A stretch of 64,000 nt of DNA, taken from a virus. The notes under the pieces are model-generated. The model was not told where the DNA came from, did no database searches, and saw only the letters and a program-made list of their open reading frames with translations. A program made the translations under genes and the position numbers. Position 1 is the first letter of the stretch. Every line of letters begins with the position of its first letter. Below are positions 9,558 to 34,986 of the stretch, one piece after another. The stretch is taken from IMG/VR virus record IMGVR_UViG_3300020411_004289, positions 1 to 64,000 of that record; one strand, written 5' to 3'.

Positions 9558-11474
9558 ATGTTTAGTAACCCATTTAATATTCCAGAAGAAAAACACTTAG
9601 ACCCAGATTCTGAAGTAGTTTTTGTTGCAGATCTTTTTGCCAGTGACTATGCAGGAGGAGCTGAGCTTACTAGTCAGGCTTTGATTGACAGCTGTCCTCT
9701 GAAAATAGAGTGTTTAAGAAGTAAAGAAGTGACAATTGAACTTCTAGAAGAAGGTCATCAGAAGTACTGGATCTTCGGAAACTTTTCAGCTATGAACATG
9801 GAATTAATTCCGACGATTGTAGCAAACCTAAATTATTCAGTACTTGAATACGACTTTAAATATTGCAGGTACAGAAGCCCGGAAAAACACAGATTCGCTG
9901 AGCAGATTGATTGCAACTGTCATACAGAAATGCATGGAAAAATGATAAGTGCTTTTTTCTACGGTGCAAAGTCACTCTGGTGGATGTCTGAAGCACAGGA
10001 AAATCATTACCTAGGGCTATTTCCTTTCTTAAAGGAAAAGGAATCTGTGGTACTCTCTAGTGTCTTTGATGACAATTATTTTGCCACCGTCAAAACCCTT
10101 AATGAAAAATATAAGAATGAGAATAGGCAAGGCTGGATAGTCCTAGGATCCAATAGTTGGATTAAAGGTGCAGAAGCAGCTGAAGCCTGGTGTAAAATGA
10201 CAGGCAAAGACTATGAGGTAGTTTGGAATCTCCCCTACTCAGAAGTTCTAGAAAAACTTGCTAAAGCTGAAGGTTTTGTCTATCTCCCAGAAGGCATGGA
10301 TACATGCCCCAGAATGGTTATTGAAGCTAAGATGCTAGGCTGTCAGCTACACCTCAACGACTATGTTCAACATAAGAACGAGGTATGGTTTGACACAGAA
10401 GATCCTTTTGACACTGAGGCCTATCTTTACGCCGCTCGATCTAGATTTTGGGGATCAATTAAAGAAACAATGGCTTACAGACCCACCATAGGAGGATACC
10501 TTACAACAAAAGATTGCACATCACAAGGGTACCCATGGAAGCAATGTATTGAATCTATGTTGGGTTTTTGTGATGAAGTTGTTGTAGTGGACGGAGGTTC
10601 TACAGATGGAACATGGGAAGAGTTATCAGAGTGGTCCCAAAAAGAAGAACGTCTGAAAATAGATCAAGTTGTAAGAGATTGGACACATAAAAGACATGCT
10701 GTTTTTGATGGTGCACAAAAAGCTGAAGCTAGAAAAAGATGCACATCAGAATTTCTTTGGCAAATGGATGCCGATGAAATAGTTCATGAAGAGGACTATG
10801 AAAAAATCATAGGACTTTGTAGAAATTTTCCGGAGCATGCTGAACTAGTTTCTCTACCGGTAATAGAATATTGGGGAAGCCATGAAAAAGTCAGACTTGA
10901 CGTTAATCCATGGAAGTGGCGCTTGTCAAAAAATGTACCACATATTACTCACGGAATTCCAGTCGAATTAAGAAAATATGATGATGACGGAGATCTTTAT
11001 GCTCAGATGGGAACAGACGGTTGTGACTATGTCCACACAGAGACCGGAGAAAGAATTCCTCACGCATCTTTCTATACAGGCGATGTAGACTTAGCCAGGC
11101 GACATGCACTTACCGGTAATAAAGATGCTTACGAGCAGTATCAAAAATGGTACCAAGGTGTTGTTGATATGCTACCTGGTGTACACCACTACAGCTGGTT
11201 TGATATAGAAAGAAAAATCATGACTTACAAAAACTATTGGCAGACTCATTGGGAAAGCCTGTATGACATAACGCAGGAAGATACAGTAGAGAACAATATG
11301 TTTTTTGATAAAATGTGGAAAGATGTAACAGATAAAGAAATCTCTGAAATGGCACATAAATTGTCCACCGAGACAGGTGGGCATATTTTTCATTCCAAAG
11401 TAGATTTTTCTAATCCTACTCCTCACCTAGAGATAAAAAGATCTCATCCCAAAGTAATGATTGATGAAGAGTAA
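9558..11474 (+). CDS. Two-domain glycosyltransferase (N-terminal GT-B/GT4-like, C-terminal GT2)
   Basis: GGAE near the N-terminus; WIKG...DTCPRMVIEAKMLGC (GT-B); then DEVVVVDGGSTDGT and QMDADE (GT2 DxD). Confidence 0.85.
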   Translation: MFSNPFNIPEEKHLDPDSEVVFVADLFASDYAGGAELTSQALIDSCPLKIECLRSKEVTIELLEEGHQKYWIFGNFSAMNMELIPTIVANLNYSVLEYDFKYCRYRSPEKHRFAEQIDCNCHTEMHGKMISAFFYGAKSLWWMSEAQENHYLGLFPFLKEKESVVLSSVFDDNYFATVKTLNEKYKNENRQGWIVLGSNSWIKGAEAAEAWCKMTGKDYEVVWNLPYSEVLEKLAKAEGFVYLPEGMDTCPRMVIEAKMLGCQLHLNDYVQHKNEVWFDTEDPFDTEAYLYAARSRFWGSIKETMAYRPTIGGYLTTKDCTSQGYPWKQCIESMLGFCDEVVVVDGGSTDGTWEELSEWSQKEERLKIDQVVRDWTHKRHAVFDGAQKAEARKRCTSEFLWQMDADEIVHEEDYEKIIGLCRNFPEHAELVSLPVIEYWGSHEKVRLDVNPWKWRLSKNVPHITHGIPVELRKYDDDGDLYAQMGTDGCDYVHTETGERIPHASFYTGDVDLARRHALTGNKDAYEQYQKWYQGVVDMLPGVHHYSWFDIERKIMTYKNYWQTHWESLYDITQEDTVENNMFFDKMWKDVTDKEISEMAHKLSTETGGHIFHSKVDFSNPTPHLEIKRSHPKVMIDEE

Positions 11475-12231
11475 CGTATACGTAATTTCTTGTCAAAGAA
11501 ATGCAAACAAATATGCTGTTAATTGTCTAGAGACAGTTCGCTTACAAAAAGTAGCTGTAAAAAAACACATATTCATAGATGACGTATCTTCTGATAACAC
11601 ATGCGAAATTATTAACAATTACATTTCACAGACAGAAAATTCAATAGTAGAATTTGTCCAAAATTCTGAAAGAAAATACAGACTAAAAAACATAGATGAT
11701 GCTATTGAATCAATTGATGATGAAGATGGAATTGTTTGTCTATTAGACGGCGACGACTGGTTCTCTACAGATCAAGCCACAGCAATAGTTCAGTCTGCAT
11801 ATAGTCAAAATAAAAAATTAGAATACGTCTATACTAACTGGATGTATTCACACGATGGATCACTAGGAATATCTCAGAGAATCCCTAGCCAAGATTGGTG
11901 TGCGTATAGAGATCCATGGATTACTAGTGCCATGGCCACATTTAAAGTTTCAACTTACAAAAATGTACCTAAAGCCAATTTTTTAGACGACTCCGGAGAA
12001 TTCTTTAAAATGGGCACAGATCATGCCTATGTTTTACCAATAACACACATGCTAAAAAAGAAGTACGGTGACTATAGTGCAGTAGGTTTTATTGACATGC
12101 CTCTTTATGTCTACCAGTTTGTGGAAAATCAAATGCGCCGAAGAACTAATTCTGAAGAAGGCTTTTGGGAAACAAAGACAGCAGCTGACTCTTCTAGTTT
12201 TATTAGAAGCAGAGGTTTTTTAGATGACTAG
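11464..12231 (+). CDS. Glycosyltransferase family 2
   Basis: FIDDVSSDNT, CLLDGDDW (DxD), TDHAYVLP, PLYVY. Confidence 0.85.
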   Translation: MKSNVYVISCQRNANKYAVNCLETVRLQKVAVKKHIFIDDVSSDNTCEIINNYISQTENSIVEFVQNSERKYRLKNIDDAIESIDDEDGIVCLLDGDDWFSTDQATAIVQSAYSQNKKLEYVYTNWMYSHDGSLGISQRIPSQDWCAYRDPWITSAMATFKVSTYKNVPKANFLDDSGEFFKMGTDHAYVLPITHMLKKKYGDYSAVGFIDMPLYVYQFVENQMRRRTNSEEGFWETKTAADSSSFIRSRGFLDD

Positions 12232-13162
12232 AATATTAATGGTAACTTCTCCGGGAGGAAATCGAGGCCCGGCAAACGCTTTTCAAAATCATCTCAATGC
12301 TTTAAATGACTCTACAGAATTTGAAATAAAAGAGTGGCATCAGCTTTTTTCTGAAAGTGAACTAGCCACATTTGATGTATTTTGGTTTTCAGTAAGGTTC
12401 CACCCAAACTACTATTACGAGCTCAAGAAAAGATTTCCGGAAAAAATATTCTGGATGGGGCCAAATGTTTTGTTTGAAAAAGCAGAAGTCGGACCTTCAG
12501 ATGATTGGGAAAAATGGTTTGTGAGTAATGTAGAATGTGATGTCTACACAAATAAGGCTGATTTTTACTTAAATAGAGCTAGACAATTTTTTGATAAAAG
12601 CAAAAAATATAGTGTCTTGAGAAACTGCCTAAATCTAAAAAATTACTCAGTCACAGTCGACCAGTTGCAGTCACCTCGTAGCAATGATGTTCTAGTTTAT
12701 TATAAGAATAGAAGAATTGACAATCAACTAGATAGACTTTTTCCTAGGTTTATGGAAAATATTAAAAAACTTGATGTCTCCTTTGATGTAATAGAATATG
12801 GAAATTACAATAGAGAAGACTATTTTGATAAGCTAGCTAATTCAAAGGTTTGTGTCTGGTTAAGCATAGAAGATTTTTGCTCAAATGCGCAACTTGAAGC
12901 ACAATATCTAAATGTCCCTGTAATAGGAACATGTTATAACAATACTGATGTGTATGACACAAATCTAAATGTTGCTGCAGCAAATATGTCAGATGACAAA
13001 TGGATAACCTGGAATGAAAACATGCCCGAGTTGTTTTCCCAGAGAGTTGAAAATTTTCTCAATAAAGACTACAATACTATTAGTATGAAGCCTAGAAATC
13101 ATATTCTAGAAAACTATTCGTATGATGCATATGCTAAACAGGTAAAAGACATTCTAGGATGA
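12224..13162 (+). CDS. Putative GT-B glycosyltransferase
   Basis: GPN motif, VLVYYKNR, and EDFCSNAQLEAQYLNVPVI resembling the E-x7-E GT-B signature. Confidence 0.6.
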   Translation: MTRILMVTSPGGNRGPANAFQNHLNALNDSTEFEIKEWHQLFSESELATFDVFWFSVRFHPNYYYELKKRFPEKIFWMGPNVLFEKAEVGPSDDWEKWFVSNVECDVYTNKADFYLNRARQFFDKSKKYSVLRNCLNLKNYSVTVDQLQSPRSNDVLVYYKNRRIDNQLDRLFPRFMENIKKLDVSFDVIEYGNYNREDYFDKLANSKVCVWLSIEDFCSNAQLEAQYLNVPVIGTCYNNTDVYDTNLNVAAANMSDDKWITWNENMPELFSQRVENFLNKDYNTISMKPRNHILENYSYDAYAKQVKDILG

Positions 13163-14058
13163 AAAAAAGAATTCTAATAACATACGACGTAGAAGACTGG
13201 GCTTATCATAAAAATGCTAAGATCTTACAAAAGTATCTATCAGATTTCTATGATATTGATGTAATATCTGATCAAGATAAGCATGCGCTCTTAAGTCACA
13301 TCAATAGAGTTCCTTATAATCTGCTTTTTCTACAATGGTTTCCAGATGTCGACATATTCTACAAAATGTATCGATTACCCTACCCAACAGTGACACAAGT
13401 CACCTCTTCCGTGTTTTTTAAAATGCATTCAGAGGGATGGGACACACTAGACTTGGTTCCTTTAGTAGTGTCTAAAAGTCGTCAATACTATGATAAACTT
13501 AAGAACATAATAGGCGAAGAAAAGTCTAGACTAGCTTATCACGTTAATGATTATGAGCTGTTTAAGCCAAAACACGGAAGAAGAAATAAAGAGTTTACTG
13601 TAGGTTATGTCGGAAGAGACTGTGAGATAGCAAATGAAAACAAGGGGCATTCTTTTATAAAAGAAGCTTGTGATTTAGTTGGTGCAAAATTTAAAATAGC
13701 TGGGTTTGACAATAGGTTGTCTTATGAAAAAATGCCAGAATACTATCATTCAGTTGATGTTGTAGTTTGTGCATCCCGCCACGAAGGTGCTCCAAACTCT
13801 ATGCTCGAAGCCGGCCTCTGCGGCACACCAATCATTTCTACCAGAGTAGGTCAAATTCAAGAAATGATAAAAGATGGAGAGAATGCTTTTTTCTGCGAAA
13901 GAAACGCTAGTAATATTGCAGAAAAACTGACTCTCTTAAGAGAAAATAATGAGTTATATGACACTTTTTCTAGAAATATATCAGAGACCTGCCACAGTTA
14001 TGCTAGACTAGCAATTGATCAGTGGAAAGAATTTTTCGAGGAATCATTAAATGTTTAA
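13159..14058 (+). CDS. Glycosyltransferase family 4
   Basis: VGYVGR...NKG; DVVVCASRHEGAPNSMLEAGLCGTPIISTRVG. Confidence 0.9.
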   Translation: MKKRILITYDVEDWAYHKNAKILQKYLSDFYDIDVISDQDKHALLSHINRVPYNLLFLQWFPDVDIFYKMYRLPYPTVTQVTSSVFFKMHSEGWDTLDLVPLVVSKSRQYYDKLKNIIGEEKSRLAYHVNDYELFKPKHGRRNKEFTVGYVGRDCEIANENKGHSFIKEACDLVGAKFKIAGFDNRLSYEKMPEYYHSVDVVVCASRHEGAPNSMLEAGLCGTPIISTRVGQIQEMIKDGENAFFCERNASNIAEKLTLLRENNELYDTFSRNISETCHSYARLAIDQWKEFFEESLNV

Positions 14059-14809
14059 CAATCCATTTGAAACTAAAAAAGACCAACGGGCTAAGCTATC
14101 ATTAGACTTAAGTTTGCTGCCAGTAGACAACGAGTGGGAACTTAAGTTTCAAGAGCTCATGAAAGATGAATATCTTTCCAAGAAGTACAACAGAGAAAAG
14201 AGAATTAATGATCATCTAGACTATCTTAAGAATTTATGCCCAATAGTGTTTCATTCTGAAAATATCAATAAGGCTCTAAATGTAATTGATATCGGTCCCG
14301 GTCCAGGAGAGTTGCTTGAAATTACAAGATGCTTAGGGTACAATTCTGTAGGTTTTGATGCAAAATTAGAAGATTGTGAAATGGGTGTACCTTACATAAG
14401 TTTAAGTAAGATGATGTCTAGCCGACAAAATCTAGATATTCGCTATACAGGTTTTGAAAACACAATAAATCACATGCCTTTCAAGGAAAACTCTACTCTT
14501 CTTATAAACAGTAGAGGATCCATTGAACAGGTATTTAAAGATCATCTCAAAGGTGTGCCTCATAGAGAACACCATAATGCTAGGCTTTTAACATGGAGCA
14601 TGTCTAAAGAGATGCTATCTGATTTTACCAGTCTTTTCATGGAAGCTAAAAGAATATTAGTCTCCGGAGGCGTGTTCCTTATACACGGCAATGGCGCAAC
14701 AAATATTGATGACTATCACAATATGATAATGAAGATCGTAGAAAGCACTGAGGGATTAATCTGTGATGCCTCAGATGGACAGACATTGCATAGGTTAAGA
14801 AAACTATGA
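14051..14809 (+). CDS. Class I SAM-dependent methyltransferase-like protein
   Basis: VIDIGPGPGE motif I; RILVSGGVFL near the C-terminus. Confidence 0.7.
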   Translation: MFNNPFETKKDQRAKLSLDLSLLPVDNEWELKFQELMKDEYLSKKYNREKRINDHLDYLKNLCPIVFHSENINKALNVIDIGPGPGELLEITRCLGYNSVGFDAKLEDCEMGVPYISLSKMMSSRQNLDIRYTGFENTINHMPFKENSTLLINSRGSIEQVFKDHLKGVPHREHHNARLLTWSMSKEMLSDFTSLFMEAKRILVSGGVFLIHGNGATNIDDYHNMIMKIVESTEGLICDASDGQTLHRLRKL

Positions 14810-15618
14810 TATTTTACCCAAAGTCAAACCAAGATATATCAGAATACACTCTAGCAATCATTGCTAGTAATAACGTATACAACTATCTAAAGCAACATGT
14901 ATTCTTTCTTAGAAGTGCTGAGATTAAGTTTAAAAACTTGGTAATCGGTGATGCTGGACTTTTAGAAAAGCAAAAAGAAGAAATAGTTGATGGCTTAGGG
15001 GAAAAGGTGTCTTTTGTAGAGTTCGAGGATAAAAATTATGACACTAATTTCAAAACTCAGAGCAATGAATACAGAAAGATAATCGACAACAGAGTACAGT
15101 TTTTAAAAGATATATTCTTAGACAAAAACACTGAAAGAGTAGTTCAGTTAGATGCTGATACTGCAATAATACAAAATAATTTTAAAATGCTAGACAAGAC
15201 TGCAGACGTAAGTCTTACTGTCCGCCCGGTTACGCCATACGATCATATTTTAGGACAGTTTCAAGTCGACTATCCAAATTGCGGTGTTATCTTTTGGAAT
15301 AATCCGACGAAGTCAATACCATTTTTAAATCACTGGGAAGAATACAAACAAAACAATCCTGCAAAAGGTGGACAATATGAACAAAACTATTTTTTGCATG
15401 CATGCCTAGATGATTCTTTTACTCAATTAAATGTGCAAAAAATTCACTGCGCGTACTACAATTGTTATAATGCTGACTGGCTTAATCAAGACACATCTAT
15501 TCTTCACTACAAGGGAAATAGTAAGCTGTTTGGCCCGGGCGGCGGAAATTTTGAGTCAAGAAGTGACTATTTGAATATGGCTGCTTTTGGCAAAAAGCTT
15601 AGGTTTGAACAAGAGTAA
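14806..15618 (+). CDS. GT-A fold nucleotide-diphospho-sugar transferase
   Basis: QLDADT (DxD), NCGVIFW, YEQ, YN...ILHYKG, typical of GT8/GT34/GT77-like folds. Confidence 0.75.
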   Translation: MIFYPKSNQDISEYTLAIIASNNVYNYLKQHVFFLRSAEIKFKNLVIGDAGLLEKQKEEIVDGLGEKVSFVEFEDKNYDTNFKTQSNEYRKIIDNRVQFLKDIFLDKNTERVVQLDADTAIIQNNFKMLDKTADVSLTVRPVTPYDHILGQFQVDYPNCGVIFWNNPTKSIPFLNHWEEYKQNNPAKGGQYEQNYFLHACLDDSFTQLNVQKIHCAYYNCYNADWLNQDTSILHYKGNSKLFGPGGGNFESRSDYLNMAAFGKKLRFEQE

Positions 15619-15622
15619 AAAG

Positions 15623-15994
15623 ATGTCAAACATACGACCTATAACAATATTTTGTGACATTGATGGAACCTTGGTAGAACATGCCAAACCATGTATTGCA
15701 GCTAAACCCGGGTACAAGATGCAATTATTACCAGGTACTATAAACAAACTATTAGAGTGGGACAAAAAGGGTTATAGAATAATCCTAACTACCGGAAGAA
15801 AAGAAAGTCTAAGAAGACAGACCGTAAAACAATTAGAAGCCGCCGGCATAATATACGATATGCTTATTATGGGAATTGGCGGGGGTAATAGAGTGTTAAT
15901 AAATGACCTAAAAGAAGACTCTACAGAGCTCACAGCCAAGGCATTTTGTGTCAAAAGAGACAAAGGCATTAAAGATTTAGAAATAGAGAAGTAA
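15623..15994 (+). CDS. Capless HAD-superfamily phosphatase (capsule-biosynthesis phosphatase-like)
   Basis: IFCDIDGTL motif I, ILTTGR motif II, LINDLK. ATG at 15623 follows the upstream stop. Confidence 0.8.
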   Translation: MSNIRPITIFCDIDGTLVEHAKPCIAAKPGYKMQLLPGTINKLLEWDKKGYRIILTTGRKESLRRQTVKQLEAAGIIYDMLIMGIGGGNRVLINDLKEDSTELTAKAFCVKRDKGIKDLEIEK

Positions 15995-16007
15995 AAAAGG
16001 TAGAATA

Positions 16008-16400
16008 ATGGAAAAGACAGCAAAGGCAATTAGAATTGATAGAAATGAAGGCCTATCGAAAATTTCTGTAGAAGATTTAGAGTCATTAGCAGCAGACTAT
16101 TTTTTGATATTCGCCAACAAAGATCTCAAGTCATTAGCTTCTGTGCTTTCAGACGATGTTGTACTTAGGGACTGGGAGATAACAGCTACCGGAAAACAGG
16201 AAGTTTTATCTGCAAACGAAAATATTTTTAATGCCTTTGAAAATATCGAAGTCTCAATAGAGAAAATGTATGTGTGCGACATGACTGTAATCGCAGAAAT
16301 CACAATCAATCTAGATACTGAGACAATATTAGTCACAGACATTATTGAGTTTGATTCACACCAGAAAATAAAATCAGTAACTGCGTATAAGGGAAACTAG
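16008..16400 (+). CDS. NTF2/SnoaL-like protein
   Basis: F..KDL..L..VLSDDVVLRDW...GKQEV...DIIEFD...KIKSVTAY. Confidence 0.75.
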   Translation: MEKTAKAIRIDRNEGLSKISVEDLESLAADYFLIFANKDLKSLASVLSDDVVLRDWEITATGKQEVLSANENIFNAFENIEVSIEKMYVCDMTVIAEITINLDTETILVTDIIEFDSHQKIKSVTAYKGN

Positions 16401-20053: not shown

Positions 20054-20098
20054 GCTTGAAAAAACTAAAAAAAACTATTACTATTTTTGTGAGGAAAA

Positions 20099-24294: not shown

Positions 24295-24295
24295 C

Positions 24296-27467: not shown

Positions 27468-28517
27468 ATGAAAATATTCTTAGAAACATACGACCAGAGA
27501 TACGGAGATAGAATTGCGTTTTTAGGCACGATTCAGAATCAGCTAAGTGATCATCACGATATTATGTTTGTTAGTTCGTACGAAGAAGCAGACATTCTTA
27601 TGAGTCAGCAGGTTTCTTATTTGCCCAATCTAGACTTCTGTCTTAACCAAAAAAAGCCTGTCATAATCATTGAGGTAAATGACTCTGCTTCAATTAAAAA
27701 TAATGAAATGAGAAAAGCAATAAAAAATCCAGTTGTAAAAGGGTTTTTTAAAGTAACCAATTTCAAAGATATCGAAAATCACAACAAACCTACTACAGGT
27801 GAGAGATACCATGCAAATTTCATAAATCAGCATGCAAACTTAGGAGAGGTCAAAGAGCATATCGTAAAATTTACAGACGAAGAGCTTCTAAAAATTCAGT
27901 GTGCATCGCCATCTTTTCTGAACTTTAGAATGGATCAGGTTAGAAAAGCAGATGGACTAGCTAACAGTAACAGACCTATTGATGTAAATTTTGCAGGTAC
28001 AACAGACTATACAAAAAATAAAAATTATGTCAATCTACCTGAAGGTGATCCTAAGCTAGCCTTACCACTACTAATCGGCATGCATAGAAAATGGGCAATC
28101 TCAGAGATTGTAGACGCAACAAAAGATCAAAACTTAAAGTCAATAATTGTAGATCATAAACCAATGTCACAACCTGAGTATTGGAACTCTCTTTATAGTT
28201 CTAAGGTGTGTATTTCTCCATGGGGATTTGGGGCTTATAACTGGAGAGATTATGAGGCAATCTATTTGGGCGCTTTGCTAGTAAAGCCTAATACTGACTT
28301 TCTAGAGACATATTGCGATCTCTTTAGAGCCGGCGAAAACTATGTTGAATGCGATCAAAATTTTGCTAATCTTCAATCCGTTTTAAAAGATTGTCTAGAA
28401 AATTATAATGATTATACACCCATAAGAGAGAATGCTCTTAAGACTCTAAATGATCATCACGATATAGAAAAAATAGCCGCAAGGTTTGCAAAACAATTAG
28501 GCAATTGTCTAAAGTAA
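27468..28517 (+). CDS. GT-B glycosyltransferase-like protein
   Basis: RPIDVNFAG; SKVCISPWGFG...RDYEAIYLGALLVKP (exostosin/Glyco_trans_1_2-type C-terminus). Confidence 0.7.
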   Translation: MKIFLETYDQRYGDRIAFLGTIQNQLSDHHDIMFVSSYEEADILMSQQVSYLPNLDFCLNQKKPVIIIEVNDSASIKNNEMRKAIKNPVVKGFFKVTNFKDIENHNKPTTGERYHANFINQHANLGEVKEHIVKFTDEELLKIQCASPSFLNFRMDQVRKADGLANSNRPIDVNFAGTTDYTKNKNYVNLPEGDPKLALPLLIGMHRKWAISEIVDATKDQNLKSIIVDHKPMSQPEYWNSLYSSKVCISPWGFGAYNWRDYEAIYLGALLVKPNTDFLETYCDLFRAGENYVECDQNFANLQSVLKDCLENYNDYTPIRENALKTLNDHHDIEKIAARFAKQLGNCLK

Positions 28518-28540
28518 CCAAGTTAGGAGGTAACGTTACG

Positions 28541-29383
28541 ATGTATAACATTGGAATTATCGGCCATGGATTTGTAGGCACAGCAATCGTACATGGATTT
28601 TCTTTACATGCAAATATAAAAATATACGACAAGGATGCAACTAAGTCGACTCACTCACTAGAAGAAGTAGTAAATAGTTCAGATTTTGTCTTTATTGGAG
28701 TGCCGACTCCTATGACTAATGTATTGGGTGGAAAAATAGACTTGTCTATAATGGACAGTGTAATGTCAGAAATTAACGACCTACACAAAGGAAATGACAC
28801 CGTCTTTATTATTAAGTCAACAGTTGTCCCAGGAACAGTTGAAAAATATATTGAGATGTACCCGAACCTAGAGATTGCTTTTAATCCTGAGTTTCTAACT
28901 GAGCGAGCTGCCCGTCTAGACTTTATTAATACAGCTAGAATAGTAATAGGCGGATCTGAAAGCACTTGTCAAAAAGTAGAAGATCTTTACAGAGTAAGAT
29001 TTCCTTATACGAAAATTATTAAGACTGATCCTGCCACAGCACAGTTTATAAAATACATGGCTAACTGTTTTTTTGCTACAAAGGTATCGTTTATGAACGA
29101 AATGAGGCAAGCAGCAAATAAGCTAGGGTGTGACTGGGATGATACTATGGAAGGTTTCATAACAGATGGTAGAATTGGAAATTCACATTTAGACGTTCCT
29201 GGGCATGATGGTCATTGTGGTTTCGGGGGAAAATGCTTCCCAAAAGATTTAAATGCGTTTATTTCTCTTTTTGAGTCTATAGGAATAGATCCACTAGTCA
29301 TGAAAGCAGCCTGGGAAAAGAATTTAGAAGTTAGAAAAGAGTTAGACTGGAATTCAATTGAAGGAGCGGTTTCAAAGAAATGA
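28541..29383 (+). CDS. ugd: UDP-glucose/GDP-mannose 6-dehydrogenase family, short form
   Basis: IGHGFVG, VPTP, IKSTVVPGT, NPEFL, KYMAN, GFGGKCFPKD. AGGAGG RBS before ATG 28541. Confidence 0.9.
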   Translation: MYNIGIIGHGFVGTAIVHGFSLHANIKIYDKDATKSTHSLEEVVNSSDFVFIGVPTPMTNVLGGKIDLSIMDSVMSEINDLHKGNDTVFIIKSTVVPGTVEKYIEMYPNLEIAFNPEFLTERAARLDFINTARIVIGGSESTCQKVEDLYRVRFPYTKIIKTDPATAQFIKYMANCFFATKVSFMNEMRQAANKLGCDWDDTMEGFITDGRIGNSHLDVPGHDGHCGFGGKCFPKDLNAFISLFESIGIDPLVMKAAWEKNLEVRKELDWNSIEGAVSKK

Positions 29384-30285
29384 AATCCGTTGTAACAGGT
29401 GGTTGCGGCTTCATAGGAAGTCATATCGTAGATGCGCTGCATGATCTAGGGCACACAGTAGAAGTCATTGATGATCTGTCTGCTCCTGAAAATGAAAAAT
29501 TTTATTTTCATAATAATGATAAAAAAGTAACATATCACCAGCTAGATATCAGCAAAGATGACTGTGAAAATATTTTTGAAAATGTAGACTTTGTATTTCA
29601 TTTAGCAGCCCGAAGTAGAATTCAACCAACAATAGGAAGCCCGGGCGAATGTTTCGAGGTAAATGTGGTTGGCACGCAGAGGGTCTTAGAGTGGTCTAGA
29701 ATGCATTCTGCAAAGAGACTAATATATTCAGGTACGTCATCACTATATGGTCACCAGAATGTAATTCCGTTTCAGCCAAATATGCCCACTGATTGCTTAA
29801 ACCCATATTCGATGTCAAAATGGATGGGCGAGCAAATTTGTAAATTATACAGCCAGATGTATACTATGCCAAGTATTGTTTTGCGATATTTTAATGTCTA
29901 CGGCCCACGAGAGCCCGTTAAAGGACACTACGCTCCGGTTATCGGTCTATTCAAGAGGCAAGTAAAAGAAGAAAAACCTATGACAATAGTAGGGGATGGA
30001 AATCAAAAGAGAGACTTCACATACATCGATGATGTGGTTCAGTCAAATATTTGCGCAATGAACTTGCCAGAAAATTTTTCAAAATTTGAAATCTATAATG
30101 TGGGAACAGGTAAAAATTATAGCATAAATGAAGTAGCTAATCTGGTGAGTAGCGACGCAGAAAGAATTAATATTTCATCCCGTCCGGCCGAAGTAAGAGA
30201 AACTTTAGCAGACATACAAAAAACTTCAAATGACTTAGGGTGGAGCCCTAAATTCAGCTTAGAAGAAAAAATACTTTCATACTAA
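29380..30285 (+). CDS. NAD-dependent nucleotide-sugar epimerase/dehydratase
   Basis: VTGGCGFIGSH, YSMSK (YxxxK), LRYFNVYGP, RDFTYIDD. Confidence 0.92.
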   Translation: MKSVVTGGCGFIGSHIVDALHDLGHTVEVIDDLSAPENEKFYFHNNDKKVTYHQLDISKDDCENIFENVDFVFHLAARSRIQPTIGSPGECFEVNVVGTQRVLEWSRMHSAKRLIYSGTSSLYGHQNVIPFQPNMPTDCLNPYSMSKWMGEQICKLYSQMYTMPSIVLRYFNVYGPREPVKGHYAPVIGLFKRQVKEEKPMTIVGDGNQKRDFTYIDDVVQSNICAMNLPENFSKFEIYNVGTGKNYSINEVANLVSSDAERINISSRPAEVRETLADIQKTSNDLGWSPKFSLEEKILSY

Positions 30286-30297
30286 AGAGGAAAAAAG

Positions 30298-31236
30298 ATG
30301 AGCAAATTATTAGTAACAGGAGGTTTAGGATTTATCGGTTCAAACTTAGTAAAAAAGCTAAGTGAGATGGAATTAGATGTCGTAGTTGTTGACAACAGAT
30401 CGTCGAGCAGAGAAGATGCAAATGAAGTAGAAATGTCTTTGCCTGAAGTTGAGTTTATTAATGCATGCTACACAGATGAAAGCCTGATTAGAAGAATTAA
30501 AGAAAAAGAATTTGACACAGTTTTTCATGTTGCTGCTATCCCTAGAGTTAGTTACTCTGTTGAGAACCCAACAGTAACGACTGACAATAACGTCGCAAAG
30601 ACGGTAAAATTAATGGAGGCATGTGCCGGAAATATTAGAAGATTTGTCTTTTCTTCTTCCTCTTCTGTTTACGGAGGTGCTGATATTTTACCAACTCCAA
30701 ACAGTCATTCAAAAAGTCCAAAATCTCCATACGCATGGCAAAAAAGCTGTATTGAGGATTTAATAGAAGTGTTTTGTAATCTTTATGAATTTGATGCTGT
30801 AAGCTTGAGATACTTTAATGTCTTTGGTCCAGGCCAATTTGGAGGATCTGCGTATGCAACTGCAATTTCTGCATGGTGTCATGCGATAAAGACCGGAGGG
30901 GTACTGAGAAAAGACGGCACCGGAGAGCAGTCTAGAGACATGTGCTACGTCGATAATGTTGTTAATGCAAATATTCTTGCAATGAATTCTAAGAAACAAT
31001 TCTTAGGGCAAAAATTTAATGTTGCTTGCGGAGACAGAACATCCAATAATCAAATACTAGACGCACTAACAGAAAGGTTTGGAAAGTTAAGCATTAACAA
31101 TGTGCCCTTCAGGAAGGGAGACGTAATGCATACTCAGGCTGATATAAGTCAAACTACTGCTGAGCTAGGTTATACACCGTCTGTTAGATTTTGGGAAGGA
31201 TTTAAAAAGACATTAGAATGGTGGGATCTGGCCTAA
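30298..31236 (+). CDS. NAD-dependent nucleotide-sugar epimerase/dehydratase, second paralogue
   Basis: VTGGLGFIGS, SSSSVYG, PYAWQK, LRYFNVFGP. Confidence 0.92.
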   Translation: MSKLLVTGGLGFIGSNLVKKLSEMELDVVVVDNRSSSREDANEVEMSLPEVEFINACYTDESLIRRIKEKEFDTVFHVAAIPRVSYSVENPTVTTDNNVAKTVKLMEACAGNIRRFVFSSSSSVYGGADILPTPNSHSKSPKSPYAWQKSCIEDLIEVFCNLYEFDAVSLRYFNVFGPGQFGGSAYATAISAWCHAIKTGGVLRKDGTGEQSRDMCYVDNVVNANILAMNSKKQFLGQKFNVACGDRTSNNQILDALTERFGKLSINNVPFRKGDVMHTQADISQTTAELGYTPSVRFWEGFKKTLEWWDLA

Positions 31237-31237
31237 C

Positions 31238-31675
31238 ATGTCGAATAAAAAATTCAATACCGGGATAATATGTGGCTCATTTGATGTATTGCATCCTGGT
31301 TATACTCGTATGTTTGAAGACGCAAAAACAGTTTGCAAAACTTTAATTGTCGCCTTACAAGGAGATCCGACGATTGATCGACCAAAAAAATGCAAACCTG
31401 TACAGTCACTTTCAGATCGTATTGAGATTCTAGGAGCGCTAAAACATGTTGATCATATTGTCACTTATAACACAGAAGCTGAGCTAGAAAAACTCCTGGG
31501 CGAAGTACAGTATGATGTGAGAATCTTAGGGACAGATTATCAGAATAGAAAAGACTATACAGGGTTCAAGTACGGAAAGCCAGTATATTTTCACAAGAGA
31601 GATCATGATTACTCTACAACTAAACTTAAAGACTTGATATACAGAGAAAGAAGTCGCACCCTTGAAAACAATTGA
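31238..31675 (+). CDS. TagD-like cytidylyltransferase
   Basis: GSFDVLHPGY, PVQSLSDR, LGTDY, RDHDYSTT. Confidence 0.8.
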   Translation: MSNKKFNTGIICGSFDVLHPGYTRMFEDAKTVCKTLIVALQGDPTIDRPKKCKPVQSLSDRIEILGALKHVDHIVTYNTEAELEKLLGEVQYDVRILGTDYQNRKDYTGFKYGKPVYFHKRDHDYSTTKLKDLIYRERSRTLENN

Positions 31676-31705: not shown

Positions 31706-32530
31706 ATGAATAATTTTCCGACAAATAAACCACATGTATCATATTCAGAAGTAAGGTGCTGGAAAGAATGCCCATATCGACACAAACTTCTGCATATTGA
31801 CAAAATAGACGTTTTTAAACCTTCTCCGTATTTAGACTTTGGGACACAAGTACACGAAGGTTGTGAAAGCTATTTGAACACCAGAACAATTCCAAAGCAA
31901 AAACTTTTAGAGAATATTAGGGCTGCATGGGAGAAAAATGGCTTTGATGATCCCGAATGGGTAAAGCAACAGCCCGGGTGGTACAAATATCATCCAGTTG
32001 AGGAGTGGTGTACATGGGCTTCGAATATGTGGGATGATGTTCCTAAATTCTTAGATGAAACTTTTCCTAATTGGGAGCCAGTCTCTGCAGAGGAAGAGCT
32101 TTACGAGGATATCGAAAACAAAGATATAAAATTTAAGGGTTTTATTGATGTAATCATAAAAACTCCTCGAAAAAATGGTACTTGGAAGTATTGGATTCTC
32201 GACTGGAAAACTGCAAAGTCATATGGTTGGGATAGAAGAAAAAAGCAAGATTTTCTAACACAAGCACAAATTGTACTTTACAAGCATTTTTGGGCAACTA
32301 AAAACAATATACCTTTAAAGGATGTAAGTTGTGGCTTTATCCTTTTAAAGCGAGGCGGCAAGCCAGGAAATATGTGCGACTTTTTTCAAATATCATCAGG
32401 CCCAAAAGCAATTGAGAAGGCCAGAAAAATGGTCAAAAATATGATAGGCACTGTACAAAGAAAGTTTTTTATGAAAAACAGGGATTCTTGCACATTTTGT
32501 GACTTTAAAAATACGCCTCACTGTACATAA
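31706..32530 (+). CDS. PD-(D/E)XK nuclease, Cas4/AddB-like with a probable Fe-S cluster
   Basis: SYS...CPY, FGTQVH, GFIDV, LDWKT, Q...Y, and C-terminal CTFCDF...C. Confidence 0.85.
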   Translation: MNNFPTNKPHVSYSEVRCWKECPYRHKLLHIDKIDVFKPSPYLDFGTQVHEGCESYLNTRTIPKQKLLENIRAAWEKNGFDDPEWVKQQPGWYKYHPVEEWCTWASNMWDDVPKFLDETFPNWEPVSAEEELYEDIENKDIKFKGFIDVIIKTPRKNGTWKYWILDWKTAKSYGWDRRKKQDFLTQAQIVLYKHFWATKNNIPLKDVSCGFILLKRGGKPGNMCDFFQISSGPKAIEKARKMVKNMIGTVQRKFFMKNRDSCTFCDFKNTPHCT

Positions 32531-32566: not shown

Positions 32567-33826
32567 ATGAATGAAAAGCTAAAAATATTAATATTGTCTG
32601 ATCACGCGCTTTCCACTTCGGGCGTGGGTTGCCAGACTCGATTTTTGGTTAACGGTCTAGTAGAAAAAGGCTGTTGGACTGTTAGGCAATTTGGTGCCGC
32701 AATCAAGCATGCCAATTATGATACTGTTGTTGTTAATGACGATTTCATCATCAAGCCGATCGATGGTTTCGGTAATAGAGATATGATTTTACAAACATTA
32801 GCAATGGAAAAACCTGACGTAATTCTTCTTTTTACAGACCCTAGATTCTTTATCTGGCTATGGGAAATGGAAGATGAGATTCATGATGTATGCCCAATAG
32901 CATACTGGCATGTCTGGGACAACAACCCACCGCCGGAATTTAATAAAGTGTTATATGAGTCAACTGATCTAATCAATTGTCACTCATATTTGACTTATGA
33001 AATTGTTTCAAAAATGTTCCCGAAGAAAACCAACTTTATTCCTCATTCTTTACCTGAAGATATCTTCTATCCACTTCCAAAAAATGAAATAAAGACGCAT
33101 AGAGTCAATCTAATAGGCTCGGAGCGAAAAGATCATTTTGTTGCATTTTGGGTTAATAGAAATGCTAGAAGAAAGAGGCCCAATGATGTTTTGTGGGGAT
33201 GGGCTGAGTTTGTTAAAAATGTAAAAGAAAAGCACGGAAAGTCTGATGTAACTCTTTTAATGCACACTGACCCACAAGATCAGGAAGGTCCAAACCTTTT
33301 AGCGACATGTGATCATTTAGGAATCAGTGACAGCGTAGTATTCTCAAATCAAAGAGTAGACTTTGATCAAATGAATATACTGCACAATATATCAGATGTT
33401 TGTGTAAACATTGCCTATGCCGAAGGATTTGGCTTGGCAACGTTAGAGGCTATGCAAACAGGAAATCCAATTATTGCGCTCAAGACAGGCGGTCTAACTA
33501 GACAGGTTGTTGATCATAGAGACGGCTCAGAAAATGGAATTGCACTTGATGTGTCCTATAGATCTTTAGTAGGTTCACAAAATGTGCCTTACATTTACGA
33601 AGACTATTGTTCACATACAGACACTGCTGATGCATTAATGAAGATGTACGAGATGTCTAGTGAAGAAAGAGAATCGCTAGGGCAAAAAGCTAGAAATTAT
33701 GTACTCTCTGAATTTTCTCATCAAGGGACTATTGATGCTTGGCACGAGACTTTGTTTAACTTGGTTAAAAACTGGAAAGAGAGCAAAACACCCCAGTGGA
33801 CAATTGAAGAGGTGAATACAAAATGA
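32567..33826 (+). CDS. Glycosyltransferase family 4
   Basis: VNRNARRKR, EGFGLATLEAMQTGNPII. Confidence 0.9.
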   Translation: MNEKLKILILSDHALSTSGVGCQTRFLVNGLVEKGCWTVRQFGAAIKHANYDTVVVNDDFIIKPIDGFGNRDMILQTLAMEKPDVILLFTDPRFFIWLWEMEDEIHDVCPIAYWHVWDNNPPPEFNKVLYESTDLINCHSYLTYEIVSKMFPKKTNFIPHSLPEDIFYPLPKNEIKTHRVNLIGSERKDHFVAFWVNRNARRKRPNDVLWGWAEFVKNVKEKHGKSDVTLLMHTDPQDQEGPNLLATCDHLGISDSVVFSNQRVDFDQMNILHNISDVCVNIAYAEGFGLATLEAMQTGNPIIALKTGGLTRQVVDHRDGSENGIALDVSYRSLVGSQNVPYIYEDYCSHTDTADALMKMYEMSSEERESLGQKARNYVLSEFSHQGTIDAWHETLFNLVKNWKESKTPQWTIEEVNTK

Positions 33827-34986
33827 AAAAAGTCGTAATAAGAGCACCGCTTTTAACAAAATCCGGATACGGAGTACACTCCCGTCAGCTATTTCAATAT
33901 CTAGTAGGAAAACCAAACATAGAACTAAAAACTCAGATAGTGCCGTGGGGAATAACACCATGGTATACTAATTTTGATAGTTGCAATGGTTTGATCGGCG
34001 AGGCAATAAAGAGATCGAATACGACACCCGAAGAAAAATTCGACGTATCCTTTCAAGTACAGCTTCCAAATGAGTGGGATGCAGGCGTCGCATCTTACAA
34101 CGTAGGCGTCACGGCCGGAGTCGAAACTGATAAGTGCAACCCGACATGGGGGTCTGTTCACTGTAACAAGATGGATAAAATCATAGTTCCCTCAGCGCAT
34201 ACTGAAAAAAGCTTTAAAAACAGCGCTGTGATTCAAACTCCAATGCATGTAGTGCCAGAGGCATATTTTGAAAACTTGATAAACACACCTGAACATCTAG
34301 ATCTAGATATCAGCACTAATTTTAATTTTTTGACTGTAGGTGTACTAACCGGTTTTACACCAGACACAGATAGAAAGAATTTATTTTACTTGATCAAGTG
34401 GTTTGTTGAAGAGTTTAGAAATGACCCTGATGTTGGACTTATTGTTAAGACAAATAGTGGTAGAGACACAGCTATTGACAAGTCTGCTACACGTCAAATG
34501 CTAAATAAAATTTTAAAAGAAGTTGGACACGAAGGAACACCTAAAGTGCATCTTCTGCATGGGTCAATGACCCGTGATGAAATGAACGCATTGTACAAGA
34601 ATTCAAAGGTAAAAGCACTAATATCAGCAACTAGAGGAGAAGGGTTTGGTCTGCCGCTTCTAGAAGCTTCAGTTGCAGGATTGCCTGTCTTGGCGACCAA
34701 TTGGTCAGCCCATACAGAGTTTCTTAATATGGGAAGATGGGTAAAGTTTGATTATGATCTAATGCCAATTAGCGAGCAAAGATGTGATAACAATATTTTT
34801 ATGCCAGGTGCTAATTGGGCGTATGCTCGAGAAGAATCATTTAAAAAATCGTTAAGAAAATTTTATAAGAACTCAGAGATTCCAACACGATGGGCAGCAG
34901 ATCTATCAGAAAAATTAAAAGATACACATTCAATATCTTCTATCATAAAATGCTATGATAAAGTTCTGAAAGAGGTTCTGGGTTGA
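33823..34986 (+). CDS. Glycosyltransferase family 4
   Basis: SGYGVHSR, DRKN, TRGEGFGLPLLEASVAGLPVLATNWS. Confidence 0.9.
   Translation: MKKVVIRAPLLTKSGYGVHSRQLFQYLVGKPNIELKTQIVPWGITPWYTNFDSCNGLIGEAIKRSNTTPEEKFDVSFQVQLPNEWDAGVASYNVGVTAGVETDKCNPTWGSVHCNKMDKIIVPSAHTEKSFKNSAVIQTPMHVVPEAYFENLINTPEHLDLDISTNFNFLTVGVLTGFTPDTDRKNLFYLIKWFVEEFRNDPDVGLIVKTNSGRDTAIDKSATRQMLNKILKEVGHEGTPKVHLLHGSMTRDEMNALYKNSKVKALISATRGEGFGLPLLEASVAGLPVLATNWSAHTEFLNMGRWVKFDYDLMPISEQRCDNNIFMPGANWAYAREESFKKSLRKFYKNSEIPTRWAADLSEKLKDTHSISSIIKCYDKVLKEVLG

What the first reader, a model, noticed from the sequence alone, without database searches (positions are those of the whole stretch)
9558..34986. 25-kb glycan-building island inside the virion morphogenesis region: candidate phosphonoglycan coat
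Seen: about nine GT-like genes, three methyltransferases, UGD, two epimerases, a PMI cupin, nucleotidyltransferases and the phosphonate cassette. All are co-oriented, mostly with ATGA-type overlaps, between fibre genes and the sigma/baseplate genes. No flippase, ABC exporter, Wzy polymerase or undecaprenyl-phosphate initiating transferase is visible, and the enzymes lack obvious TM segments. Inference: the acceptor is cytoplasmic (virion proteins, or possibly phage DNA) rather than host LPS or capsule. Such a coat would be a methylated, phosphonylated and phosphatase-resistant shield.
Basis: partly seen in the sequence, partly recalled or inferred. Interest (0 to 1): 0.82.

Follow-up and report, generated by a model that had tools for sequence, protein, structure and literature searches.

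The report
Phage sugar-chain factory with phosphonate module
An uncultured marine T4-like phage carries a 25-kb block of soluble enzymes that should build a methylated sugar chain tagged with a carbon-phosphorus compound; what the chain is attached to, most likely the phage's own outer tail proteins, is still unproven.

Summary
Window 9558-34986 is an unbroken, co-oriented run of 28 ORFs without membrane segments. It holds 7 glycosyltransferase genes (8 GT domains), 3 methyltransferases, nucleotide-sugar enzymes, a CyTase-PEP mutase / split Ppd / Fe-ADH / B12-radical-SAM cassette, and one nuclease. No initiating transferase, flippase, polymerase/ligase or ABC permease occurs here, in two complete relatives or in one cultured relative.

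Relatives keep a core of nuclease, GT4, GT4 and a new compact GT-B domain. Next to it lie 14-25 kb of variable sugar genes.

In relatives, the slot just upstream of the phosphonate cassette holds LicD-like or TagF-like head-group transferases. Here it holds a sulfatase-fold protein with a Thr in place of the formylglycine motif. A phosphonate-decorated glycan is therefore well supported.

The acceptor is not settled:
- DNA is disfavoured.
- Virion proteins are favoured modestly. A [ST]GS excess marks distal tail proteins here and in the cultured Flavobacterium phage immuto, but not in T4.
- Host-envelope remodelling, the published reading of such islands, remains a live rival.

The GT core sits in replication modules in distant relatives and is coupled to the late-sigma gene, so the link to morphogenesis is weaker than proposed.

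This scan noted similar phage phosphonate-glycan islands on at least 10 other genomes.

The parts
7517..7559 (+). Strong intrinsic terminator (7517-7542) followed by a late-type promoter motif ATATTTA (7553). This is the last such signal before the island.
   Evidence: 11-pair stem followed by a T-run; the motif lies 30 nt before the start at 7583.
9335..9557 (+). 223-bp AT-rich gap before the island, with TTATTAGTAC occurring twice. Candidate pre-late promoter region (inferred).
   Evidence: There is no late motif and no sigma-70 signal above chance.
9558..11474 (+). Bifunctional GT. Residues 1-302 are the phage-specific compact GT-B 'domain X'; residues 329-435 are a GT2 domain.
   Evidence: Domain X follows GT4B in relatives and is fused to GT4B in G004.
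11461..12231 (+). GT2 glycosyltransferase.
   Evidence: A homologue follows domain X in G003 and G004.
12224..13162 (+). Unassigned soluble protein (312 aa).
   Evidence: no family hit.
13159..14058 (+). GT1/GT4-type glycosyltransferase.
14051..14809 (+). Class I methyltransferase (weak match).
14806..15618 (+). GT-A-like nucleotide-diphospho-sugar transferase.
   Evidence: PF03407.
15587..16400 (+). HAD phosphatase (15587-15994) and SnoaL-like protein (16008-16400).
16400..19258 (+). Three-gene sugar-activation unit: PMI-type cupin, NTP-transferase plus APH-like kinase, and an unknown 329-aa protein.
   Evidence: The trio is conserved in G005 at 61%, 36% and 42% identity.
19262..21532 (+). 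Methyltransferase (19262), unknown protein (20099) and FkbM-type methyltransferase (20939).
21548..22984 (+). Sulfatase-fold (alkaline-phosphatase superfamily) protein without a formylglycine motif. D11, T50 and D240-H241 are invariant. Candidate phosphonyl head-group transferase or editing esterase.
   Evidence: It occupies the slot held by LicD-like or TagF-like genes in relatives.
22981..24294 (+). Cytidylyltransferase-PEP mutase fusion (Fom1-type architecture).
24284..25169 (+). Phosphonopyruvate decarboxylase split into two ORFs (24284-24709 and 24699-25169).
   Evidence: The split is conserved in 21 viral loci as well as here.
25172..25948 (+). Truncated group-III Fe-alcohol dehydrogenase (phosphonoacetaldehyde reductase type).
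   Evidence: the best NCBIfam hit is TIGR03405.
25945..27465 (+). B12-binding radical SAM enzyme (class B), with CPFQCTFC at residue 207. Accessory gene, absent from the closest relative.
27468..28517 (+). GT-B-like glycosyltransferase (Glyco_trans_1_2-like fold).
28505..31675 (+). Truncated UGD-like dehydrogenase, two GalE-like SDR enzymes and a small cytidylyl/adenylyl-transferase.
31706..32530 (+). PD-(D/E)XK nuclease, the conserved left neighbour of the GT4 pair in all relatives.
32567..34986 (+). Conserved GT4A (32567-33826) and GT4B (33823-34986) pair.
34983..36019 (+). Small membrane protein (34983-35291) and gp55-like late sigma factor (35288-36019). Each overlaps its upstream gene by 4 nt.

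Best explanation
The island is a phage-borne cytoplasmic glycan factory. It belongs to the hypervariable kind already seen in marine T4-like phages.

Core. It is built around three conserved GT-B transferases: GT4A, GT4B and the newly recognised domain X. Domain X now forms the N-terminal half of ORF 9558.

Variable modules. These supply nucleotide sugars (SDR enzymes, UGD-like protein, cupin, kinase/NTP-transferase), extend the chain (GT2, GT1, GT-A and GT-B enzymes) and O-methylate it (three methyltransferases).

Head-group module (inferred from family chemistry). It converts host PEP to phosphonopyruvate, then phosphonoacetaldehyde, then 2-hydroxyethylphosphonate. The fused cytidylyltransferase activates this as a CMP conjugate. 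The B12-radical SAM enzyme may methylate it, at C as Fom3 does or at P as PhpK does; which one is unknown.

Transfer (inferred). The phosphonate is passed to a sugar hydroxyl. The most likely agent is the sulfatase-fold protein ORF 21548. It has a Thr where sulfatases have formylglycine, and it sits where relatives have LicD-like or TagF-like transferases.

Acceptor (least certain step). Assembly takes place in the cytoplasm on an acceptor that needs no phage-encoded lipid carrier or export step. I rate Ser/Thr of [ST]GS motifs in the distal baseplate and fibre proteins as the most likely acceptor.

Shown: gene content, solubility, synteny, the fusions, and the absence of export genes.
Inferred: the chemistry of the product, the transfer step, the acceptor and the timing.
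For: Phosphonoglycan:
- Ppm scores above the equivalog cut-off and has the EDKxxxxxNS motif and a fused HxGH CyTase.
- The Ppm-Ppd-ADH cassette recurs in 22 or more IMG/VR viral loci as a compact phage lineage. Ppd and ADH are 40-65% identical among phages but only 26-51% to bacteria.
- The gene just upstream of Ppm is LicD-family in L008, LicD-family one gene further upstream in L017, and TagF-like in L009/L010; L022 has a TagF-like gene about 7 kb upstream of its Ppm.
- In bacteria, CMP-phosphonates with LicD-like transferases mark cell-surface glycan tailoring (PMC6697681).
- ORF 21548 lacks C/S-x-P-x-R, keeps D11, T50 and D240-H241 invariant, and folds like sulfatases and phosphonate monoester hydrolases.
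- In L138 and L139 the same protein is paired with a different nucleotidyl-activation module.

One functional unit:
- Domain X is fused to GT4B in G004, stands alone in G003, and is fused to GT2 here.

Cytoplasmic, phage-determined acceptor:
- The island encodes no membrane proteins, and the islands of five relatives hold none with five or more predicted TM segments.
- Five export and initiation families are absent from complete relatives.
- The GT4 pair is conserved in phages of Flavobacterium, Microcystis and Rhodothermus.

Virion proteins:
- [ST]GS is 3-11 times over expectation in six tail, baseplate and sheath proteins here, against 3 observed and 4 expected in island enzymes.
- Seven consecutive distal tail proteins of immuto show the same excess.
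- T4 baseplate and fibre proteins show 1 observed against 6.9 expected.
Against: - No chemistry exists for any member of this group.
- The GT4 pair lies in replication modules in Mel-JY01 and RM378.
- Here the pair is translationally coupled to the late-sigma gene, and no late-type promoter motif precedes it. Expression may therefore begin before virion proteins exist.
- The [ST]GS excess could be a structural repeat of this clade's fibres. I have only one negative control.
- The window has no recognisable LicD or TagF homologue.
- The nearest folds to ORF 21548 are hydrolases, not transferases.
- Ppd, ADH and the radical SAM enzyme all score far below their family cut-offs.
- The published reading of such islands is host O-chain modification (PMC7029224).
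Confidence: 0.5

Rival explanations
1. Host-envelope remodelling. The soluble phage GTs act at the inner face of the membrane on host lipid-linked intermediates (undecaprenyl-linked O-units, LPS core or capsule precursors). The host's own initiating transferase, flippase or ABC exporter and ligase then finish the job. The surface of the infected cell changes, which blocks superinfection or stops progeny from sticking to debris.
For: - This is the published interpretation of glycan-rich hypervariable islands in pelagimyophages and cyanomyophages (PMC7029224).
- Bacterial O-antigen GTs are likewise soluble or peripheral.
- Coupling to the sigma gene and the replication-module position in Mel-JY01 and RM378 fit pre-late expression.
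- Bacterial Ppm clusters with CyTase and LicD serve cell-surface glycans (PMC6697681).
- Marine bacteria make surface phosphonoglycoproteins that may deter phages (PMC8931226).
Against: - No carrier-priming, flipping, polymerising or exporting gene occurs in any of the five phage genomes tested, two of them complete.
- The GT4-GT4 core is conserved across phages whose hosts belong to different phyla and have very different surface glycans.
- A chain built from 7 or more foreign GTs with unusual caps would have to be accepted by host exporters.
- This reading does not explain the [ST]GS excess in distal tail proteins.
Confidence: 0.28
2. DNA hypermodification. The GT4 pair, and perhaps the island, glycosylate phage DNA bases to evade restriction, as the T4 alpha- and beta-glucosyltransferases do.
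For: - A nuclease always flanks the GT4 pair, and the pair sits among replication genes in Mel-JY01 and RM378.
- GT-B enzymes do glycosylate DNA. T4 alpha-GT appears among the fold matches of domain X at rank 39.
- Oligosaccharide-sized DNA adducts are suspected in phage YerA41 (PMC9023294).
- There are weak Pfam GT4-conflict matches, below the cut-off.
Against: - LC-UV-MS/MS of immuto DNA gave canonical dA, dC and dT, and only fdPreQ1 in place of dG (bioRxiv 10.1101/2023.04.13.536721). Immuto carries the homologous nuclease-GT-GT island.
- Two complete viral genomes (G006, which has the GT4 core, and G007, which has the Ppm cassette but no GT4A match) have no thymidylate-synthase-family gene that could make hydroxymethyl-pyrimidines.
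- A chain needing 7 or more GTs plus methyl and phosphonate caps is far beyond any known DNA glycan.
Confidence: 0.07
3. Free product. The phosphonate cassette makes a diffusible small molecule, either a fosfomycin-like antibiotic or a phosphonate metabolite that sequesters phosphorus. Alternatively, the island makes a free oligosaccharide that is released at lysis and is not attached to any macromolecule.
For: - The domain series CyTase-Ppm, Ppd, Fe-ADH and B12-radical SAM matches the first four fosfomycin steps (PMC6697681; PMC8158854 listed).
- The window has no recognisable LicD or TagF transferase.
Against: - No island ORF has a family match that would fit the later fosfomycin enzymes (a CMP-HPP hydrolase or an HppE-type epoxidase). 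The only cupin is clearly PMI-type.
- The radical SAM gene is missing from the closest relative and from most viral cassettes.
- The cassette is always embedded among GTs and next to head-group transferases in relatives.
Confidence: 0.1

Closest known systems
Host recognition cluster (HRC) of pelagimyophages and cyanomyophages (Zaragoza-Solas et al. 2020, PMC7029224)
   Same: A large hypervariable island in marine T4-like phages, lying beside tail-fibre genes. It is rich in glycosyltransferases and LPS-type sugar genes (rfaE, UGD). Radical SAM cassettes differ between near-identical genomes.
   Different: This is a different phage lineage: gp6 is only about 30% identical to any cultured phage. 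The HRC was read as host O-chain modification. Neither a phosphonate module nor a conserved GT4-GT4-X core was described for it.
Mycobacteriophage virion glycosylation (Freeman et al. 2023, as cited in PMC12619734)
   Same: Phage-encoded soluble GTs near structural genes decorate virion proteins in the cytoplasm, without any export machinery.
   Different: That system has one or two GTs and a simple glycan on capsid and tail-tube C-termini, in actinobacterial hosts. Here there are 7 GT genes with methyl and phosphonate tailoring, and glycosylation has not been demonstrated.
Early fosfomycin pathway: Fom1 (CyTase-Ppm), Fom2, FomC, Fom3
   Same: The same domain series in the same order, including the PF01467 CyTase fused to the N-terminus of Ppm. 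In Fom1 this domain cytidylylates 2-hydroxyethylphosphonate (PMC6697681).
   Different: - Ppd is split and ADH is truncated.
- The radical SAM enzyme is no closer to any named family than about 100 bits.
- No late fosfomycin enzymes are present.
- The context is a glycan island, not an antibiotic cluster.
Bacterial phosphonyl-tailoring (Pnt) and Lic-type head-group pathways
   Same: A CMP-activated phospho(no)-alcohol is handed to a glycan by LicD-like or TagF-like transferases. Such transferases flank the same cassette in phage relatives.
   Different: The predicted head group is hydroxyethylphosphonate rather than aminoethylphosphonate or phosphocholine. In this window the transferase slot holds an alkaline-phosphatase-superfamily protein instead.
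Giant-virus glycan machinery, and the single NCLDV aminoethylphosphonate cluster (PMC8942020)
   Same: Virus-encoded, host-independent synthesis of unusual glycans. One NCLDV contig was proposed to make a viral phosphonoglycan.
   Different: Those are eukaryotic viruses. That survey found no Ppm in RefSeq viruses or in 364 huge phages. Here the carrier is a tailed phage, and the cassette recurs on dozens of viral contigs.

Membership tests
PEP mutase (Ppm) | EDKxxxxxNS motif and a score above the TIGR02320 equivalog cut-off | tested here: met
   EDKTGVKRNS at residue 265. Score 378.6 bits against a cut-off of 319.55.
Fom1-type bifunctional CyTase-Ppm | N-terminal PF01467 cytidylyltransferase with HxGH, fused to Ppm | tested here: met
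   PF01467 covers residues 15-136. HEGH at residue 20. The substrate (HEP) is inferred, not tested.
Phosphonopyruvate decarboxylase | A full-length ThDP enzyme scoring above the TIGR03297 cut-off | tested here: inconclusive
   The two ORFs cover profile positions 3-117 and 172-292 and score 98 and 92 bits, against a cut-off of 312.5. The split form is conserved in 21 viral loci as well as here.
Phosphonate-type Fe-ADH (PhpC/FomC/PsrA) | A full-length group-III ADH scoring above the TIGR03405 cut-off | tested here: inconclusive
   This family is the best hit, but at 83 bits against a cut-off of 423.7. The N-terminal ~75 positions of the Pfam Fe-ADH N-domain profile (~125 of the TIGR03405 model) are unmatched.
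Fom3 / PhpK class-B radical SAM methylases | B12 domain plus CxxxCxxC, and specific similarity to a phosphonate methylase | tested here: inconclusive
   Both domains and the motif are present. The best scores are the PhpK family at 100.7 bits against a cut-off of 600, with HpnJ equal to it. No Fom3 model or structure was available.
Fosfomycin biosynthetic cluster | Late enzymes (a CMP-HPP hydrolase and an HppE-type epoxidase) | tested here: not met
   None of the 28 island ORFs shows such a family. The only cupin matches the PMI C-terminal domain at 1e-33.
Wzx/Wzy- or ABC-dependent surface polysaccharide locus | An initiating phosphoglycosyltransferase, a flippase, a polymerase or ligase, or an ABC-2 permease | tested here: not met
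   PF02397, PF00953, PF01943, PF04932 and PF01061 are absent from G000, G003, G006, G007 and immuto. The controls were positive. The island has no TM segments.
S1 formylglycine sulfatase / phosphonate monoester hydrolase | C/S-x-P-x-R formylglycine motif at the nucleophile position | tested here: not met
   ORF 21548 has no such motif. Thr50 is invariant at the N-terminus of the helix after strand 2. The fold itself matches.
LicD / TagF head-group transferases | A PF04991 or PF04464 domain next to the activation genes | tested here: not met
   Neither Pfam nor HMMs built from the relatives' genes find one in the window. The feature is met in relatives L008, L017 and L009/L010; L022 has PF04464 about 7 kb from its Ppm.
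T4-type DNA glycosylation | A hydroxymethyl-pyrimidine synthase (thymidylate-synthase family), and glycosylated nucleosides in virion DNA | tested here: not met
   PF00303 is absent from the complete genomes G006 (GT4 core present) and G007 (Ppm cassette, no GT4A match). Immuto DNA has canonical dC and dT. The window's own genome is only about 21% complete, so for it this test is indirect.
Phage virion glycosylation | A glycan covalently bound to virion proteins | not testable with these tools
   Only indirect evidence exists: the [ST]GS excess in distal tail proteins here and in immuto, and its absence in T4.
Hypervariable glycan island (HRC type) of marine T4-like phages | Non-syntenic interior between conserved flanks, next to tail-fibre and structural genes | tested here: met
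   The nuclease-GT4-GT4 and sigma-gp25-gp6 frame is conserved. The interior differs in six genomes and holds 61 Pfam families across 98 ORFs.

The most novel reading that the evidence does not exclude
Large marine T4-like phages O-glycosylate their distal tail and baseplate proteins in the cytoplasm at [ST]GS sequons. The chain is hypervariable, methylated and capped with 2-hydroxyethyl- (or hydroxypropyl-) phosphonate. A new Thr-nucleophile member of the alkaline-phosphatase superfamily transfers the cap from its CMP conjugate. Viral particles and lysates would then be a direct, overlooked source of the phosphonate esters on polysaccharide that make up much of marine high-molecular-weight dissolved organic phosphorus.
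Probability: 0.3. Interest if true: 0.85.

Novelty: new variant of a known kind. Interest (0 to 1): 0.66.

Why it matters
Hydroxyethylphosphonate esters on polysaccharide are a major, unexplained pool of marine dissolved organic phosphorus (context in PMC8942020 and PMC8931226). Their producers are thought to be cells.

A compact, phage-adapted phosphonate cassette sits inside a sugar-chain factory. It recurs on dozens of viral contigs, and this island was found near-identical in seawater sampled ten years apart. This would make viruses a direct source of such compounds.

It also bears on phage biology. If the chain sits on tail proteins, it is a hypervariable, enzyme-resistant coat. Such a coat could tune adsorption or shield against proteases and grazers. 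If the chain goes to the host surface, it is a superinfection barrier.

Three items are concrete and testable: the conserved GT4-GT4-X core, its Rosetta-stone fusions, and the Thr-type sulfatase-fold protein. A cultured relative (Flavobacterium phage immuto) is available for the tests.

Tried and rejected
- Megablast of 22 kb of the window against GenBank phages gave no match. A first query was over the size limit.
- The T4 late promoter TATAAATA is not enriched: 2 found against 5.5 expected.
- Sigma-70-type promoters and terminators in 3.5-42 kb are no more frequent than in shuffles. The exception is the terminator at 7517.
- No tRNA genes were found.
- The host cannot be inferred from Ppm. 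The fusion is about 60% identical to proteins of many bacterial and archaeal phyla.
- None of the other island genes accompanies bacterial Ppm clusters.
- HMMs built from the relatives' LicD-like, TagF-like and unknown Ppm-neighbour genes find nothing in the window.
- PDB sequence searches for ORFs 27468 and 18269 gave nothing.
- The PF01702 (TGT) search did not detect the DpdA that the 7-deazaguanine paper reports for immuto. It is too insensitive, so I did not use it.
- No RNA holder is listed among the sequencing runs, so nothing can be said on expression.
I examined the contexts of distant ORF 21548 homologues through an IMG/VR scan instead.
- I considered and dropped reading ORF 21548 as a sulfatase for a sulfated glycan. 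It has no formylglycine motif.
- I considered and dropped a fosfomycin-type antibiotic cluster. The late enzymes are missing.

Full report
**What the DNA is.**
The window is the first 64 kb of a single 106,087-bp viral contig. All 85 ORFs lie on the + strand. CheckV rates the contig only 21% complete, so the phage may be very large.

The rest of the contig encodes a terminase, a portal, a major head protein, a sheath, a fused SbcD/SbcC nuclease and baseplate proteins. It is a distant T4-like myovirus. The nearest cultured phages are Flavobacterium phage vB_FspM_immuto and Microcystis phage Mel-JY01, which share only about 30% identity in gp6.

The island sequence occurs near-identically in marine metagenomes of several studies. 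Contigs from runs dated 2014 and 2024 bridge the internal junctions at 22981 (2024 run), 25948 (both) and 27468 (both).

**The observation.**

Structure prediction adds two glycosyltransferases.
- Residues 1-302 of ORF 9558 had no family match. They fold with pLDDT 93 into a compact GT-B enzyme.
- ORF 27468 matches GT-B-like clusters at TM 0.83.

The count is 7 GT genes with 8 GT domains, 3 methyltransferases and a B12-radical SAM enzyme.

Some details need correcting.
- The 'UGD' lacks its C-terminal domain.
- The 'PMI' is only the cupin domain.
- Ppd is split in two, and the Fe-ADH lacks its N-terminal part.
- A PD-(D/E)XK nuclease lies inside the interval.

No island protein has a membrane segment. 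Of 29 gene junctions, 18 overlap. Five families that define lipid-carrier priming, flipping, polymerisation and export are absent from this contig, from two complete relatives and from immuto. The same searches ring in 9-14 of 14 control genomes.

**Relatives.**
Five IMG/VR relatives were read across the whole region. They share one frame: PD-(D/E)XK nuclease, GT4A, GT4B, then 14-25 kb of variable soluble enzymes, then in most a small membrane protein, the gp55-like sigma, gp25 and gp6.

In the window and its closest relatives (L025, L137, L138), the nuclease-GT4-GT4 triad lies at the 3' end of the variable block instead of the 5' end.

A Pfam census of 98 interior ORFs from relatives gives 61 families, dominated by nucleotide-sugar enzymes.

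Two gene pairs tie the opposite ends of this island into one unit.
- What follows GT4B in relatives is the homologue of the N-terminal domain of ORF 9558. It is fused to GT4B in G004, stands alone in G003, and is fused to a GT2 domain here.
- This domain X has at least 501 cluster representatives in metagenomes. Its nearest Atlas clusters are 96-100% viral.

**The phosphonate module.**
The CyTase-Ppm fusion passes the Ppm equivalog cut-off and carries the diagnostic motif.

The trio of CyTase-Ppm, Ppd and Fe-ADH is widespread in bacteria at about 60%, 40% and 30% identity. The phage copies form their own compact lineage: split Ppd, a 260-aa ADH, and 40-65% identity among 22 viral loci.

By the known chemistry of these families (PMC6697681; PMC8942020), the product should be CMP-2-hydroxyethylphosphonate.

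The radical SAM gene overlaps the ADH gene by 4 nt. It is absent from the closest relative and from most viral cassettes, and it is not assignable to Fom3 or PhpK. It is an optional tailoring step of unknown regiochemistry.

**How the phosphonate reaches a glycan.**
- In relatives, the gene immediately upstream of Ppm is LicD-family in L008, and LicD-family one gene further upstream in L017.
- It is TagF-like in L009/L010, one of which is a complete 189-kb genome; L022 has a TagF-like gene about 7 kb upstream of its Ppm.
- These are the enzyme classes that move CDP- or CMP-activated head groups onto glycans.
- The most common viral arrangement surrounds the cassette with GT9, TOD1-like GT, DUF5672 and four methyltransferases.

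In the window that slot holds ORF 21548.
- It has a sulfatase fold but no formylglycine motif.
- Asp11, Thr50 and Asp240-His241 are invariant across 18 homologues.
- Thr50 sits at the N-terminus of the helix after strand 2, where this superfamily places its nucleophile.
- In two other phage contexts (L138 and L139), the same protein is followed by an IspD/MobA-type nucleotidyltransferase, DUF711 and a methyltransferase instead of the Ppm cassette.

I infer that ORF 21548 handles nucleotide-activated head groups. Whether it acts as a transferase or as an editing esterase cannot be told from sequence.

**The acceptor.**

*DNA.*
- Immuto carries the homologous nuclease-GT-GT-GT2-aminotransferase-methyltransferase island.
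- Its DNA was analysed by LC-UV-MS/MS. It shows dA, dC and dT, with fdPreQ1 replacing dG.
- Two complete viral genomes lack any thymidylate-synthase-family gene. G006 has the GT4 core; G007 has the Ppm cassette but gave no GT4A match.
- I put DNA at about 7%.

*Virion proteins.*
- [ST]GS is strongly over-represented in six tail, baseplate and sheath proteins: 6-11 sites against 0.8-2.4 expected from composition.
- It is not over-represented in the island enzymes.
- The same excess holds for seven consecutive distal tail proteins of immuto.
- T4 baseplate, gp12 and fibritin show none.
- The GT4 pair is kept in phages of Flavobacterium, Microcystis and Rhodothermus. This fits a phage-intrinsic acceptor.

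*Against a simple 'late coat' reading.*
- In Mel-JY01 and RM378 the pair lies among polymerase, clamp-loader, RNR and helicase genes.
- Here GT4B, the membrane ORF and the sigma gene overlap by 4 nt each. From what is known of T4, a late sigma has to be made before late transcription.
- A motif ATA[TC]TTA occurs 13 times in the genome. Eight of these lie 13-36 nt before structural-gene starts, against about 0.25 expected.
- That motif is absent from 9000-36500. It is also absent upstream of the baseplate genes up to 63 kb, so this argument is weak.

*Host envelope.*
Remodelling of host glycans through host carriers and exporters is the published reading for pelagimyophage islands. It remains a serious rival.

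**Novelty.**
- Glycan-rich hypervariable islands in marine T4-like phages are published (PMC7029224).
- Virion glycosylation is published for mycobacteriophages.
- In the library I could search, I found no paper describing Ppm-based phosphonate synthesis in a tailed phage.
- The 2022 inventory found none in RefSeq viruses or in 364 huge phages, and one in a giant-virus MAG.
- Among 50,697 GenBank phage records, only two short unannotated faecal fragments carry a full-length homologue.
- This scan has independently noted similar islands on at least 10 other genomes.

- the GT4-GT4-X core and its fusions;
- the positional replacement of LicD-like or TagF-like genes by a Thr-type sulfatase-fold protein;
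- the literature-based argument against DNA as the acceptor.

**Verdict.**
- Phosphonate-tagged glycan made by soluble phage enzymes: about 0.75.
- Virion proteins as the acceptor: about 0.45.
- Host envelope: about 0.28.
- Free product: about 0.1.
- DNA: about 0.07.

Noticed in passing
window 7553, 63380; genome 72786, 81085, 84851, 85991, 89099, 95439: The motif ATA[TC]TTA occurs 13 times in the 106-kb contig. Eight occurrences lie 13-36 nt upstream of structural-gene starts. It is a candidate late promoter, distinct from T4's TATAAATA.
   Followed up: partly
window 28505-29383, and homologues in G001, G004, G005, L137, L138: A UDP-sugar dehydrogenase-like protein of about 280 aa lacks the C-terminal sugar-nucleotide domain. 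It is conserved at the 3' end of the variable block in most relatives. Its true start is probably the ATG at about 28541.
   Followed up: partly
L138:11406-14504 and L139:11323-15141: Downstream of the sulfatase-fold gene, these phages carry NTP_transf_3 (IspD/MobA-like), a ParB_N-like ORF (L138 only), DUF711 and a methyltransferase in place of the Ppm cassette. L139 adds a sulfotransferase. This is an unknown alternative head-group pathway.
   Followed up: partly
window 16400-19258 and G005 (L127:17942-19889 onward): The trio of PMI-type cupin, NTP-transferase fused to an APH-like kinase, and an unknown 329-aa protein is conserved between distant islands. It looks like a self-contained sugar salvage and activation unit.
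   Followed up: no
genome 69451-72585 (L001:5451-8585): A single 1044-aa ORF combines an SbcD/Mre11-like N-terminus with an SbcC/Rad50-like remainder. These are usually two genes.
   Followed up: no
window 9335-9557: A 223-bp non-coding gap lies ahead of the island, with TTATTAGTAC repeated near both ends. In two runs (X3, X8), contigs lack one base at 9352.
   Followed up: no
window 16337-17003: Metagenome contig depth over the PMI-cupin gene is 3-50 times that of its neighbours in three of the four runs laid (2-3 times in the fourth). This short gene is probably shared nearly identically with other abundant organisms or phages.
   Followed up: no
G002 (L125:5640-6896): A 418-aa protein has two strongly hydrophobic segments and no Pfam match. 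It lies directly after GT4B, and is one of only a few ORFs with predicted hydrophobic segments in the relatives' islands.
   Followed up: partly
whole contig G000: CheckV rates the 106-kb contig 21% complete and the closest relative (45.8 kb) 13%. This hints at a jumbo genome of several hundred kb. The complete viral genomes G006 and G007 are about 185-189 kb.
   Followed up: no
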